A stretch of 63,921 nt of DNA, filler included, from Mitosporidium daphniae (lineage: Eukaryota): NCBI RefSeq assembly GCF_000760515.2. It is 6 parts of 6 records of this genome, joined end to end, with 100 filler letters (N's around TTAATTAATTAA, not from the genome) between each part and the next. Parts side by side here need not be neighbours in the genome. Positions count along the whole stretch, not along the records: positions 1 to 12,681 come from NW_013546697.1; 5 more parts are not named here. One strand, 5' to 3'. Below the pieces are notes generated by a model that searched no databases, was not told the origin of the DNA, and worked only from the letters and a program-made list of their open reading frames with translations. The translations under genes and the position numbers were made by a program. Numbering within the stretch: position 1 is the first letter of the stretch; each line of letters opens with the position of its first letter. Shown in pieces: positions 1,003-63,587 of this stretch.

Positions 1003-2160
1003 ATGGTAGGTTGCCGAGGCCGGTTCTTGTTTCCCATTCTCTGTTTTTGCATCTGTCATACATTTAGTCTTTTGACATTGAATGTTTATTTCAACTTTTT
1101 CTATCCGATTCCAATTTATTTGTAGACTGCTTCTATTGCAAGACCATTGGTCCACTCTTATTCTGAGGTTGACGGAAAGACCGTCATTGCGTCGGTTCCT
1201 CTTCCACAAGTCTTCAAATGCCCGATTCGCCCAGATGTGGTAAACTTTGTTCATACCAATCTGGCCAAAAACAGCAGACAGCCATACGCTGTCTCCCGAA
1301 TTGCTGGCCACCAGACCTCTGCTATTTCTTGGGGAACTGGTCGTGCAGTCTCGCGTATTCCGCGTGTTTCGGGAGGAGGTACTCATCGTGCTGGTCAGGG
1401 TGCGTACGGAAACATGTGTCGAGGCGGAAGAATGTTTGCACCCACCAAAATATGGCGCCGCTGGCACCGTTGTGTAAACATCAATCAACGTCGTTATGCC
1501 GTTGTTTCAGCGATTGCAGCTTCTGCTGTTCCCTCGCTTGTGATGGCTCGCGGGCATCGTATTGAGAGCATTCGCGAAGTTCCGCTTGTTGTGTCAGATA
1601 TTCTCGAGTCTATCTCGACTACCAAGGCCGCAGTTGCTTTTCTTAAGGCTGTAAACGCATTTGCAGACGTTGAGAAAGTTTCTGATTCAAAAAGACTTCG
1701 TGCTGGAAAAGGCAAAATGCGTAACCGTCGCTTCAGAATGCGAAAAGGCCCCCTTGTTGTTTATTCAAAGGACCAGGGCATCACCAAAGCCTTCAGAAGC
1801 ATTCCTGGCGTTGAGCTGCTCCCAGTGACCGCTTTGAATCTCCTAAAGTTGGCACCTGGTGGCCATCTCGGTAGATTTGTTATTTGGACCCAATCTGCCT
1901 TCTCTAAGCTTGACGCAATCTATGGTGTCGGCGGAGAAACATCTGAATCCAAGAAAAACTACTCGCTCCCTGAGCCTGTGATTTCAAATCCAGATATCTC
2001 GCGCATTATCAATTCAGAGGAAATCCAGTCTGTTCTTAGACCAATATATCCAAAGAGAACCTCCAAGGCACCTCTTAAGCATAATCCACTTAAGAACAAA
2101 AAGGCTATGATTGCACTGAACCCCTTTGCCGCCGCATCATCATCATCATCATCCAAGTAA
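1003..2160 (+). CDS. RPL4: 60S ribosomal protein L4 (uL4); exon 1 is ATG only (1003-1005), intron 1006-1125
   Basis: Motifs [61 protein letters not shown]...TTGTAG|ACT joins in frame to give [10 protein letters not shown]. Confidence 0.97.
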
Positions 2161-4533: not shown

Positions 4534-6745
4534 ATGGTCATGTTGGAGCAAGAAGCCCCCTCAGCGCTATTTGCCTTGGCTAAGGGCGACCGTGCCTATG
4601 ATACAGAGCTGTGGACACATCTGTTGCCGCTATGCAGGGATTCTTCATCTGCTTGTTTCGAGTTGCAGGATCAAATTTTCGCAGAAGCGCTGCGTCAGTA
4701 CCCTACGTCGCTTTTTGTTTGGACACAGCGGATTGCACTTGCGCTTGCACGCTTGGGAAAGCCAGAAGAGACGCCCTTGTCAGGAGCTTCAGATGTTTTA
4801 TTGGAATCCCTGTCTGTGCAGACCGCCTCTATCTTCCTGGCAGCTGCACAGGCAACGCTGAGCCCACAGGTCTGGGACCATTATCTGACATGGTTGCAAA
4901 GGCCGGGTGCTGAGGAGTTGCCCAGTAGTGTAGAGGCACTTTATGAACAGGCGGTTTCGCAAGTCGGCTTTGACGTTCACGCCGTCAACCTGTGGATGGG
5001 CTACATCCGCTTCGTCAAAGAGAAAAAGGTGCTTCATTTTGCTGACTTGTCGTAGGTGAGGGCGTTTTTGTGATCTTGCGTAGACAGAAAATCAGTTCGA
5101 AGAGCAGCTACAGTTGGACGCATTGCGAAAACTCTACCAACGTGCCGTCGTCATCCCGATGATTGGTGTTGAGGGCATTTGGCGTGAATACGACCTTTTT
5201 GAGAACGGCCTCAACAAGGTTACTGGACGAAAGATCCTTGCGGAGCGTAGTGGCGCCTACATGAATGCCCGGGCGCTTTCTCGGGAGCTGCGCGCCCTTC
5301 ACGAAGATGGCAAGATTACTCGGGGTATCATTGTCGGATATGGACTCCCACATGCCCGCGACCGCGAACAGGTATCAGAACAATAGCTTGCCATAGGTAA
5401 CGCTGTAAAGGGATTTTCTTCATAGCTCGGTGCTTTGTTGGCATGGATTGATTGGGAAATGAAGAACCACCTTTCTTTGGCTGCCGATAGCCTATATGAG
5501 CGCATTTGCTGGGCATTTCGTAGTGCGCTCGCCCATGCATACTCATCCGAACAGCTTTGGTTCCATTATTTTGAATATTTGGTGGGAAGTGGAACCATTG
5601 GAGCCCGCGAGGCTGCCATTTCCGACCTTCACGACCACGCCCTGCCATATTTGTCTCTCAGGTAAGTGGATGCCTTTTATTTTCAGTGTTCCACTTCACG
5701 CGCTGCTTCTTGAAGCATACGAAACGAGTGAAGATGTCAAAGTGGGCACAGCCTTACTTGAATCGCTTCTTTGTCGGTTTTCACTTGCCATTGCAGAAGT
5801 TGAGCGGCGCGAGGCTCCAATTAAAGATGGCATGTCTGCGTCCAAAGGAACTGATACACAGCCCTTCACGGTGGATGAAGGGCCGGGGCTACTAGTGGCT
5901 CCATCGATCTCATTGGCAGGCCTGAAGCGGGATCATTGTATGACACTTAAACACGCCATTCGATTCGCACGGCGAACACAGGTGAGTATCTTCTCTTATT
6001 TCAGGGACTGCCTCTTGCGCGACAATACTTTGCTCGGGCGCGCAAGCTGCCTTATTGCACGCATGAAATCTTTACGCTTGCAGCTAACATGGAGTTTTTC
6101 GTGGGCAAGGATCCTGGCATTGCATTCAAGATTTTCGAATTGGGAATGAAACTTTTTTCGGAAGAACCTACGTTCGTCATCTCGTACATGAAGCTGCTGC
6201 TAATAAAACTCGATGAGTCCAATATCAAGAGCCTTTTCGAGCGCGCCTTGCGCTCTCTCGCCTCTAACAAGAGTGCAATCAAAGAACTTTGGCTTATGCT
6301 GATTAGACACGAACGGGATTACGGGCATCTTGTGCGCGTAAAGGAACTCTGCAATAGGCTCATTGCAGAGGAGGCTCCGGAAAGTAATCGATTCCACTTT
6401 TCTTTAGATGGCGGGTGGACGCTTTTTTTAGATCGAAACGAACTGGCCGATTCGCTGCACGACGCAGTTGGCATGAAGGATACCACGAATACAAAGAATG
6501 CCCCATGGACGCCCGCTCCATATCGGGGTGGATTTGCATCAGATGCAATGCCATTATCGCAGCCAGCGCAGACGGCCGCCATGCAGGCAATCCGGAAACG
6601 GCCCAGGGACGGGGTCGCCGCTATTCCTTCTGGCGAAGACATCCTAAAGTCTGTACTCAACAGTTGTGGACCTGTCTCCGCATACAATGGCCCCGTTGTT
6701 CCTGCAGAAGCTGCTCTCGAGCTTTTCCGCTCCATCAAAGCCTAG
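4534..6745 (+). CDS. RNA14: mRNA 3'-end processing factor Rna14/CstF77 (HAT repeats); exons 4534-5028, 5084-5371, 5426-5661, 5687-5981, 6005-6745
   Basis: YEQAVSQVGFD..AVNLWMGYIRF, LRKLYQRAVVIP..GVEGIWREYDLFEN, WIDWEMKNHL, RRTQGLPLARQYFARARK, AFKIFELGMKLF; exon frames checked by hand. Confidence 0.88.
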
Positions 6746-6821
6746 AGGCCCATCGATCGCTAAACCTGTTGCCGTATAACACTGCAATAAACTAACTGCC
6801 ACTCAACATGCCGACTTTTGG

Positions 6822-7490: not shown

Positions 7491-7500
7491 AAAGTTGAAA

Positions 7501-7538
7501 ATTTACATTTAAATTTAAATTTAAATTTAAATGTAAAT
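7501..7538. promoter_or_regulatory. 38-bp perfect AT-rich palindrome of AAATTT units just upstream of the ESF2 start
   Basis: ATTTACATTTAAATTTAAATTTAAATTTAAATGTAAAT equals its own reverse complement; it lies 10 bp from the ESF2 ATG. Confidence 0.55.
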
Positions 7539-7920
7539 GTAAATTTAAAACAGAAACAATTTCCCCAATTTTTATCAACCTATTCGGACGTACCACCGTT
7601 CTCACGCGCGTACGCCTCGCTCGTTGTGTAAGTATGCAGGCTTTGTGTGCGTTTGATTTTCGGCGCGCAAGCCCATTTCTTGGAATGATGCCGATGTTGG
7701 CAATGTAACAGTCAGTAGCGTTACCAAGTCAATATGGACCACTTCGATTGGCCGGCCATTTGAAAAACTCTGAAATAATTTGACACCTTTTTTTCAAATT
7801 ACTCCAATCATTCGAACTTTACATGGAACCTATTATAAGTATCTTTCTTGGCGTCAGCTACGTTACAGTTGGGCTTTTTTCTATCCATTAGTCGATATTT
7901 AAACAAGATCAACTTCTCGA

Positions 7921-58637: not shown

Positions 58638-60462
58638 TTACAGCACTCTTTGTTTTTGTTGTTGTTGTTGTTGTCTCGTCATATGGTCTTGCTTGAAAAA
58701 ATTGAGCAAGTCGTCGACACTTGCAAATTTCTTATCTCTGAACAGCAGGCCAGATGAAGATATGCAGAAAGCTTCGTGATATGTTGTTTCGAACGGAAGA
58801 AAAGAAAGCAGAAAACTACAGGGCTGTTCAGGAACCATGCTTAGCCCGTAAATGATTCTCTTTGGCTGCTGAGCCTTCAGCTTTCTCAACTGGAGCTCGA
58901 TATCCTTCTTACCTGTGATCGAAGACAGATACTTGGCATGGCCTGTGACCTCGCGAAAGCAATTAATTAAAGGATCCATATATCTTGCAACAATTTCATC
59001 GAGATCATCAAACTTTTCACTCCCAATAAATAAAGAATGCCCAAGCGTCCAGGGCGTATCTTTGTTTTCCTCCCTGACCTCAATATGATGATATACATCC
59101 AATGACAAACGCCAGGAAATCACAACAAAATCAAATCCTTTGCTTGATGGGCGAATAATAATATCACCATCCTCTCCATCAGCCAATAGGCTTTCGGCTT
59201 TAATGCGATTTACATTTTTAAATAAAGGGTGTGAAATCGATCTTGATCCAGGCTTAGAGCTGAGCACTGCTCTATAAGCAGCGCTTCCGATGATCGATGG
59301 AATTGTCAAAGAGGCCGCCGTAGAGTTTCCAGAAGCTATCAATAAAAAGGATATACTTACATAAGGTATTTTTCGACGACATCAAAGAGGCTTCCTTCTT
59401 TTTATCGTAATACGGGTCCAAAGCCTTGTGTCCGGTATTGCATGTGAGGTCAGAAGGTTTCATCGACAAGTCCAAGGCACATCGTTCCTTGTTGATGTTT
59501 AGAATTTTACAAAGCACGATTTGACGGCAAGAAACAACATCTTCGATTCGTTCGATGTAGTGGTCAGCCAAATTCCTGGCAGATATGGATCCAATAAGTG
59601 AGCCGTCAATTAGCCGGACATTGACAAATTTTTCGCTGATTCGAGTAACTTCTGCAGAGAGCACAAGACCCGGGAAAATGGTTCGATCGGTCTCCCCAGT
59701 CAACATTTCAAAGATCCTCTCAATGGAGCACGCCGAAAATGAGCGCCGATCGCAAAATGGAGCCTGCAGTTCTGCAGAAATGTCCTTCAGCGTGTGCGCT
59801 TTTTTGATCTTTTTGTTTTTCTCCAACTCTTTGGCATATTCATCCAGAAGCAAGTCATTAAGCTTTGAAGGCTCGTTCATGAGCTCTTCCACATGAGCAG
59901 AGGGATTTTGATCATCGTCCAAAGGCTCTTCAATTTCCAAAGCATCTGCAGCGATCTTTCTGGCAAGGTCGTAACTTTCCGGGTGGATGCGAGTAGAATC
60001 CAAAATATCAGCGTCATACTGCCGCCGCTTTGGAAGATATTTGGAATCTATTTTGATGAATGATGCACAATTGAGGAAGATCCTTTTTCCAAGGATACTC
60101 ATCCGAAGAATGTCTGAACGGCGTTCCAAGTAGCCAGAGCTCATGCGTTTTGTAATGGTGCGAAGAAGTAGCTGCGCCTTCCGCGGACCCAACCCACAAA
60201 CAAAGGAAAGAAGCGGGACATAAAACGGATTCCGAAGGGCTTTGTTGATATCAACACCAACCAGATTGATTACATTAATTAGCGCACGATCGAGGAACCT
60301 TGTCCTCAATTCAGCGGGGGGAATCAGTGACTTGAAGGGATTGAGAGGCAATTCTAAAATCGAGTTTTCAAAGTTGGCAAGTTTTGCGAATTCACACAAT
60401 GGTTCCAAGAGCCTACGGGCGAGCGAAATAGTAAAGCAAAAGCCCTGCGGTTGGTGTTGATA
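58638..60462 (-). CDS. SPT6: Transcription elongation factor Spt6, 3' part (HhH, S1, tandem SH2; 5' cut by gap)
   Basis: VNLVGVDIN-type motif, GLGPRKA, LDSTRIHPESYDLARKIAADAL, IIRPSSKGFD, FDDLDEIVARY. Confidence 0.95.
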
Positions 60463-60562
60463 NNNNNNNNNNNNNNNNNNNNNNNNNNNNNNNNNNNNNN
60501 NNNNNNTTAATTAATTAANNNNNNNNNNNNNNNNNNNNNNNNNNNNNNNNNNNNNNNNNNNN

Positions 60563-62970: not shown

Positions 62971-63288
62971 ATGGAGCATAAAAAGGCAATTCAAGGGTTT
63001 TATGTTGGCGAGAGGGTGTTATACCACCCGGTGGGCAGTGTTTCTTCGGCCTCTGTTGGCCGCATAACCCAGATCCTGACAGACCCGGAGCTGGTGGGCC
63101 AGGAGCGCCCTGTGACTATTCACGCCGATCCCTGCCATCCGAGAATCGTAATACAAAACGAGCATACCGGAAAGAAAACCGCCTACCGACCCGAGTCGAT
63201 CATTAGAAAGGTGAATGAAACCGAGAGCTTTCCCAAAGGCTTTGGCATTGCCGGCATTTCGGAGTTGGAAACCGAAGAGGTAGGATAG
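62971..63288 (+). CDS. Small Hva1-type Tudor-fold protein, copy 1
   Basis: GERVLYHPVG...GRITQILTDP...HPRIVIQNEHTGKKTAY. Confidence 0.7.
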   Translation: MEHKKAIQGFYVGERVLYHPVGSVSSASVGRITQILTDPELVGQERPVTIHADPCHPRIVIQNEHTGKKTAYRPESIIRKVNETESFPKGFGIAGISELETEEVG

Positions 63289-63326
63289 AGTGTTTAAGTG
63301 ATCCACACTAGGGTCGGCATATTCCA

Positions 63327-63587
63327 ATGGAGTATCCGCAACCGCGAAAAGTACATGGGTCCCCGTCGCCTGGACAGCGCGTTACCTATCACCCTGTTGG
63401 GGCGTCTCCGGTAACGTCGACCGGTCTTGTTGTTGATGTGATCACGGAGCCGAGAATTGTGATGGCCGGAGATAGAGGGGAAATAACCGTGCATGCAACC
63501 GAAAAACACCCAAGAATTGTGATCAGAAACGATCACACTGGGAAAGAGATCCCATACCCTCTAGAGTCTTTGGTCTCCGTCGAATAA
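63327..63587 (+). CDS. Small Hva1-type Tudor-fold protein, copy 2 (tandem paralogue)
   Basis: GQRVTYHPVG...GLVVDVITEP...HPRIVIRNDHTGKEIPY; AATAAA overlaps the stop. Confidence 0.7.
   Translation: MEYPQPRKVHGSPSPGQRVTYHPVGASPVTSTGLVVDVITEPRIVMAGDRGEITVHATEKHPRIVIRNDHTGKEIPYPLESLVSVE

What the first reader, a model, noticed from the sequence alone, without database searches (positions are those of the whole stretch)
5029..5083. Back-to-back micro-introns with a zero-length exon in RNA14 (site 1): candidate recursive or twin intron
Seen: AAG|GTGCTTCATTTTGCTGACTTGTCGTAG|GTGAGGGCGTTTTTGTGATCTTGCGTAG|ACA. These are two complete GT...YAG units of 27 and 28 nt, the usual intron size here, abutting at TAG|GT. 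Removing both (55 nt) gives the in-frame Rna14-like FVKEKK-TENQFEEQLQLDALRKLYQRA; removing either one alone leaves a stop codon. The units resemble each other (TTTTG(C)TGA(T)CTTG(T)CGTAG), suggesting tandem duplication of an intron. Known: AG|GT ratchet points drive recursive splicing in very long animal introns, and CstF77/su(f) is autoregulated through its own RNA processing. Inference: two-step excision in a micro-intron genome, possibly acting as a regulatory checkpoint in which half-spliced RNA carries a premature stop.
Basis: partly seen in the sequence, partly recalled or inferred. Interest (0 to 1): 0.85.

Follow-up and report, generated by a model that had tools for sequence, protein, structure and literature searches.

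The report
Abutting micro-introns in Mitosporidium RNA14
In a water-flea parasite whose introns are mostly 23-32 bases long, the gene for the mRNA 3'-end factor Rna14 has two double-length gaps, each made of two intron-shaped units placed end to end, which are likely cut out in two steps and may help tune the gene's own expression, though no RNA was available to show either.

Summary
5029-5055 (27 nt) and 5056-5083 (28 nt) are GT..TAG units abutting at TAG|GT. Removing both gives the spacing found in 58 of 67 homologues; removing one leaves a stop. The RNA14 protein matches Mitosporidium daphniae. A second pair sits in the same gene (5372-5425, 25+29 nt). These two are the only predicted introns of 41-62 nt in the window; such a split arises by chance in 0.7-4.4% of trials per site. 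Three additions. (1) Both sites appear to be old intron positions. (2) A relative with 64% exon identity keeps 5 of the first 6 read-through codons of unit 1, so its weak donor and branch motif appear constrained. (3) Ribosomal-protein introns of 120 and 172 nt have no such split, so length alone does not force two steps. Two-step excision is the likeliest reading (0.55) but unshown: no RNA run was found. Duplication has modest support at site 1, none at site 2. A regulatory checkpoint is plausible but untested. Earlier scan notes report the same architecture in Rozella. Zero-length exons are known in animals and S. pombe, in far longer introns.

The parts
4534..5028 (+). RNA14/CstF-77 exon 1 (165 codons, ends AAG)
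   Evidence: Pfam Suf 13-143; matches the start of annotated M. daphniae Rna14
5029..5055 (+). Site 1 unit 1, 27 nt, weak donor GTGCTT, acceptor CGTAG, in-frame TAG at its end
   Evidence: donor at 3rd percentile of 65 introns; read-through conserved in relative P0401
5041..5046 (+). Branch-point-like GCTGAC in unit 1 (A at -11); branch function inferred
   Evidence: 7 of 65 short introns have CTRAY near the 3' end; A-D codons conserved in P0401
5056..5083 (+). Site 1 unit 2, 28 nt, donor GTGAGG, GTGAT with A at -11, acceptor CGTAG
   Evidence: acceptor score 5.3 against -2.4 for the AG at 5095
5084..5371 (+). RNA14 exon 2 (TENQFEEQ...DREQ)
   Evidence: PDB hits to CstF-77 and Rna14, E 5e-13 to 9e-7; Pfam Suf 145-218
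5372..5396 (+). Site 2 unit 1, 25 nt (average donor, weak acceptor)
5397..5425 (+). Site 2 unit 2, 29 nt
   Evidence: the 54-nt removal agrees with both public protein models
5426..5661 (+). RNA14 exon 3
   Evidence: Pfam Suf 242-296
5662..5686 (+). Ordinary 25-nt intron
5687..5981 (+). RNA14 exon 4
5982..6004 (+). Ordinary 23-nt intron
6005..6745 (+). RNA14 exon 5 to the stop; an AATAAA lies at 6786-6791
   Evidence: Pfam Suf 383-509

Best explanation
The 55 bases are two abutting intron-shaped units at an apparently old intron position of RNA14, and they are likely removed by two successive ordinary spliceosome reactions across a zero-length exon. Shown: the two units, their normal size, and the need to lose both. 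Inferred: the spliceosome pairs sites about 28 nt apart, as for most introns here. Either order works. Cutting unit 1 first regenerates AAG|GTGAGG. Cutting unit 2 first leaves unit 1 as a normal intron. Unit 2 has the better donor and acceptor, so unit 2 first is the more likely order, and unit 1 would be the slow step. Both intermediates carry a stop. More speculative (about 0.3): the conserved weak donor of unit 1 makes this step a deliberate throttle on Rna14 levels, as the weak donor of vertebrate CSTF3 intron 3 does.
For: Both predicted introns of 41-62 nt in the window (2 of 2) split at YAG|GT into units of 25-29 nt; per-site chance 0.7-4.4%. 65 frame-required short introns measure 19-39 nt, 60 of them 23-32. 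Unit 1 has a CTRAY motif at -11, found in only 7 of 65; a one-step 55-nt intron would not need it in its first half. Relative P0401 (64% identity over exon 1) reads through as VLYFADYCR* against VLHFADLS*. That is 5 of the first 6 residues, compatible with 17 of 18 bases; only 1 of 2080 unrelated intron pairs reaches 5 of 6. Its C-R-stop end gives YAG|GT at +26 if the Arg codon is AGG (12 of 72 codon choices). No significant hairpin that could shorten the intron (z +0.8).
Against: Apparent 120-nt (RPL4) and 172-nt (RPL14) introns have no subdividing AG|GT, and a 152-bp S23 intron is published for M. daphniae (PMC6349667, passage). So long introns appear removable whole. All four units score low as introns (3rd-23rd percentile), and the site-2 internal acceptor is no better than about half of exonic YAGs. 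The relative's tail also fits a single 30-nt intron ending TAG, or a single 26-nt intron followed by a Val codon. Both public protein models use a 67-nt intron. The intron set is my own ab initio model, with a length prior in the later rounds; without the prior, 30 of 47 were 20-36 nt.
Confidence: 0.55

Rival explanations
1. One ordinary 55-nt intron removed in a single step; the central TAG|GT is a relic of a tandem duplication of a micro-intron and is rarely used.
For: Site-1 units are alike (14 of 2016 pairs; shuffle p 0.002), and both pairs share their last five bases (6.5% of unrelated pairs do). Longer introns without a split exist. Internal sites score low.
Against: The first 18 bases of unit 1 are closer to the relative's than to unit 2, so unit 1 is constrained and not decaying. 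Site-2 interiors are unrelated (p 0.53). The internal AG sits 10 nt after a good branch motif and would be expected to compete (inference).
Confidence: 0.25
2. Regulated choice of acceptor: full-length mRNA comes from the direct 5028/5084 cut, and use of the internal acceptor or retention of unit 1 is a dead end (stop, decay or early 3'-end formation) that limits Rna14.
For: Weak, apparently conserved donor; both doubles of the window lie in RNA14; vertebrate CSTF3 and Drosophila su(f) autoregulate through an intronic poly(A) site (PMC3708835, passages).
Against: No AATAAA or ATTAAA in either double intron, though one follows the stop. After the first cut a good donor is regenerated, so the product should be spliced on (inference). 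Earlier scan notes list such doubles in many unrelated Rozella genes (unchecked).
Confidence: 0.14
3. The real intron is the annotated 67-nt one (5029-5095), or the central YAG|GT is chance.
For: Public proteins P0405 and P0406 lack TENQ; P0405 equals the 67-nt model exactly.
Against: That model gives a span of 25, seen in 0 of 67 homologues. Acceptor score is -2.4 against 5.3. Seven unspliced fragments of distant homologues show Q (CAG) right before the T166 equivalent. Joint chance for both sites is about 0.1% or less.
Confidence: 0.06

Closest known systems
Recursive splicing at zero-length exons (ratchet points) in Drosophila and vertebrates; 'abutting U2 introns' (PMC6616335, passage; PMC5126111, listing)
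   Same: A 3' splice site directly followed by a 5' splice site inside an intervening sequence; the first cut regenerates a donor; no bases added to the mRNA.
   Different: Described mostly for long introns; here 55 nt made of two minimal units, each a self-sufficient intron, so either order works. Intermediates are not shown here.
S. pombe zero-length exon in the 336-nt intron of SPNCRNA.445 (10.1101/226894, passages)
   Same: Fungal relative, short intron, internal 3'SS next to a 5'SS, conserved across species.
   Different: Six times longer, in a non-coding snoRNA host; backed by spliceosome profiling. Ours is in a protein-coding gene and has no RNA support.
Fungal stwintrons (PMC7138796, abstract and passages; PMC6616335)
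   Same: One intervening sequence made of two U2 units, removable by consecutive reactions, in one case also in a single step.
   Different: [quoted passage not shown]
Vertebrate CSTF3 intron 3 and Drosophila su(f) autoregulation (PMC3708835, passages)
   Same: Same gene family; an unusually long intron for the genome with a conserved weak donor.
   Different: Those use an intronic poly(A) site in a large intron; no such hexamer here, and I could not test whether the positions are homologous.

Membership tests
Recursive splicing / zero-length exon | 3' splice site immediately followed by a 5' splice site inside the intron | tested here: met
   TAG|GT at 5055/5056 and 5396/5397
Recursive splicing / zero-length exon | No bases from the site in the product | tested here: met
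   Span 29 as in 58 of 67 homologues; Pfam 143 to 144/145. Inferred from protein, not RNA
Recursive splicing / zero-length exon | Internal sites look functional and exceed chance | tested here: inconclusive
   Above chance but low scoring; site 1 better than site 2
Recursive splicing / zero-length exon | Conservation of the internal site across species | tested here: inconclusive
   Unit-1 donor and branch region conserved in P0401; the central AG|GT is compatible but not determined from peptide
Recursive splicing / zero-length exon | Half-spliced intermediates or sub-intron lariats | not testable with these tools
   No RNA run was listed
Stwintron | Internal intron nested in the external one, whose donor, branch or acceptor is restored by the first cut | tested here: not met
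   Each unit has its own uninterrupted GT and TAG, side by side
CstF-77/su(f) intronic poly(A) autoregulation | Poly(A) signal in the intron | tested here: not met
   No A[AT]TAAA in either double intron; only this hexamer was tested
CstF-77/su(f) intronic poly(A) autoregulation | Conserved weak 5' splice site on an unusually long intron | tested here: met
   Donor at 3rd percentile; V-L read-through codons shared with one relative
CstF-77/su(f) intronic poly(A) autoregulation | Short isoform responds to the factor's level | not testable with these tools
   Needs RNA and perturbation
Rna14/CstF-77 gene | Suf HAT repeats and homology to solved Rna14/CstF-77 | tested here: met

The most novel reading that the evidence does not exclude
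In the Rozella-microsporidia clade the spliceosome measures introns in units of about 28 nt and removes double-length ones stepwise through zero-length exons. Mitosporidium uses this at two old intron positions of RNA14 as a conserved splicing throttle: the weak-donor first unit replaces the long poly(A)-bearing regulatory intron of animal CstF-77 genes.
Probability: 0.22. Interest if true: 0.82.

Novelty: new variant of a known kind. Interest (0 to 1): 0.6.

Why it matters
If RNA confirms it, this is recursive splicing far below any size I found described (336 nt in S. pombe). It would show that a spliceosome can reassemble on a junction it has just made, or next to a competing site, within 28 bases. 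It gives a compact test of how intron length is measured and of how new introns can arise at an existing exon-intron border. It also makes testable whether Rna14/CstF-77 feedback survived genome compaction in another form. Practically, the public M. daphniae Rna14 models likely lack four residues.

Tried and rejected
No whole genome was held, so no genome-wide count. No RNA holder listed; the five runs gave contigs with no joints, which says nothing on splicing. Searches for relatives' DNA failed. The 4 metagenome loci L001-L004 were spurious word matches on inspection (L001, L002, L004 read, L003 judged by its near-identical hit). L005 (viral, E 1e-3) was not used. Prokaryote genomes gave none; the viral pattern scan gave none. 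Solutions with a non-zero micro-exon at site 1 need units of 14-20 or 32-47 nt and give off-mode spans; rejected. A hairpin shortening the intron: not significant at either site. Rfam: no match in the window. A third regex hit (+33150) is antisense to the AOX gene; rejected. A first-pass 50-nt candidate at -20835 resolved to a 32-nt intron. Of 11 predicted introns over 40 nt: 2 are RNA14's, 1 is RPL4, 6 I set aside as gene-fusion or missed-exon artefacts from ORF ends and Pfam hits (38709, 42970, 50724, 58641, 58048, 54175), and 2 are unresolved (cyclin 70 nt, TFIIS 105 nt). Literature searches showed no report of abutting micro-introns in Mitosporidium, Rozella or other micro-intron genomes. 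I read listings and selected passages only; the original 2014 genome paper was not in the listings, and it or supplements I did not open could mention them.

Full report
Observation. The stretch is as described. Exon 1 ends AAG at 5028, unit 1 is 5029-5055 (27 nt), unit 2 is 5056-5083 (28 nt), and exon 2 starts ACA. Reading on through unit 1 gives VLHFADLS*; removing only unit 1 gives VRAFL*. Contigs of the five listed runs cover the gene with no other letters or gaps. They come from two studies and one may be the window's source, so this argues against an assembly slip and nothing more.

The gene and organism. Exon 2 hits solved CstF-77 and Rna14, and four exons hit Pfam Suf in order. The window's exon ORFs fall in one 90% cluster with two proteins named Rna14/Suf of Mitosporidium daphniae; one of them equals my five-exon model except for four residues. 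An RPL4 tree of 42 rows, chosen from 120 listed hits, puts the window in a clade with Rozella and Paramicrosporidium (95/84).

How much must be removed. With 55 nt out, the W154..Y183 span is 29. Of 79 full-length homologues aligned, 67 had both anchors; 58 have span 29 and none has 25. Both public proteins lack TENQ and have span 25, i.e. a 67-nt intron to 5095. That AG scores -2.4 against 5.3 for 5083. The 2025 annotation used AUGUSTUS/funannotate (PMC12449221, passages). I cannot tell whether RNA backs the 67-nt model, and I judge it a likely prediction error.

Context. My ab initio model gave 85 introns in 26 retained gene models; 76 are needed for the frame and 65 of these are 19-39 nt. 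Later rounds used a length prior, but without it 30 of 47 were already 20-36 nt. Only two fall between 41 and 62 nt, both in RNA14, and both split at TAG|GT: site 1 (27+28) and site 2, 5372-5425 (25+29). A window-wide pattern scan found these two and one antisense hit. Chance per site is 0.7-4.4% by model, about 0.1% or less jointly. Against an obligatory two-step rule: RPL4 and RPL14 appear to have first introns of 120 and 172 nt with no subdividing AG|GT, and a 152-bp S23 intron is published for this species (PMC6349667, passage).

Quality of the units. All four are within the range of ordinary introns but low: 3rd, 20th, 6th and 23rd percentile. Unit 1 of site 1 has a donor at the 3rd percentile but a CTRAY motif with A at -11, present in 7 of 65 introns. 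The site-2 internal acceptor is poor. Site-1 units resemble each other (14 of 2016 pairs as high; shuffle p 0.002; top 2.8% globally); site-2 interiors do not (p 0.53). Both pairs share their last five bases, as 6.5% of unrelated pairs do. Duplication is therefore plausible at site 1 and unsupported at site 2. No significant fold.

Age of the positions. Gene callers that ignore introns leave fragments that break at exon borders. Of 122 homologues anchored at site 1, 20 lack the upstream W; 8 of these have Q (CAG) just before the T166 equivalent, 7 of them short fragments, against 8 of 102 intact ones. At site 2, 16 of 33 listed rows, read by eye, lose homology right after V or A at the same place. 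V can be native there (P0043, P0088), so this is weaker. These records are mostly unnamed. Both sites thus look like old intron positions, not new insertions into coding sequence; this is indirect.

A relative. P0401 (64% identity over exon 1) ends VKEKK-VLYFADYCR*, against VLHFADLS* here. Five of the first six read-through residues match, compatible with 17 of 18 bases; 1 of 2080 unrelated intron pairs reaches this. So unit 1's weak donor and branch region appear to be under selection. C-R-stop yields YAG|GT at +26 whenever Arg is AGG (12 of 72 codon choices), which would fit a conserved double. A single 30-nt intron, or a 26-nt one followed by Val, fits too. P0001, with the same longest-contig length, ends DREQV*, consistent with an intron at site 2. 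I could not get the DNA.

Mechanism. Most likely each unit is spliced as an ordinary micro-intron, in either order, with unit 2 probably first because its signals are better (0.55). One-step removal with a relic internal site is the main rival (0.25). A dead-end regulatory use is third (0.14). The mature mRNA is identical in all three, so only intermediates or lariats decide, and no RNA could be examined. A throttle on Rna14 is suggested by the conserved weak donor and by both doubles being in this gene, echoing CSTF3 intron 3 (PMC3708835, passages). But no AATAAA lies in either site, and the stops in half-spliced forms are unremarkable.

Comparison and novelty. Abutting U2 introns removed recursively are a named class (PMC6616335, passage). 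S. pombe has one in a 336-nt intron (10.1101/226894, passages). Stwintrons are nested, which this is not (PMC7138796). It works like a zero-length-exon site; membership is unproven for lack of intermediates. Ten literature searches showed no report at micro-intron scale or in this clade (listings and passages only; two Mitosporidium genome papers gave no hit for 'intron'). Earlier notes of this scan describe the same architecture in many Rozella genes; I did not check them. What this window adds is a second genus, concentration in RNA14, apparently old positions, and cross-species constraint on the first unit. Verdict: real, a new variant of a known kind, interest 0.6.

Noticed in passing
window 5372-5425 (+): Second abutting pair (25+29 nt) in the same RNA14 gene; either half alone leaves a stop.
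   Followed up: yes
window 5084-5095 (+): Public M. daphniae Rna14 proteins (P0405, P0406) skip these 12 nt (TENQ); likely a mis-predicted acceptor. P0406 also removes an in-frame 24-nt stretch near 6384-6407 that P0405 keeps.
   Followed up: partly
window 1006-1125 (+) and 40756-40585 (-): RPL4 and RPL14 appear to have long first introns (120 and 172 nt) right after the ATG, with no AG|GT subdivision and no Rfam match; candidates for regulatory or RNA-bearing introns like the published long S23 intron.
   Followed up: partly
window 47454-47385 (-): Cyclin gene: a 70-nt gap that starts with a strong 22-nt intron-like unit; either one 70-nt intron or 22 nt + 30-nt exon + 18 nt.
   Followed up: no
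window 62789-62685 (-): TFIIS: predicted 105-nt intron and a short N-terminus; gene model unresolved.
   Followed up: no
window 57658-57648 (-) and 54288-54272 (-): Predicted micro-exons of 11 nt (ABC transporter) and 17 nt (Rad52) between micro-introns.
   Followed up: no
window about 60460-60560 and 12682 onward: Runs of N (442 in all); one pair flanks a TTAATTAATTAA palindrome.
   Followed up: no
window 7492-7559, also near 970-990: AT-only (AAATTT)n-like tracts just upstream of genes, promoter-like; public contigs break at the first.
   Followed up: no
window 62971-63587 (+): Gene with two Hva1 TUDOR domain matches separated by a 32-nt intron.
   Followed up: no
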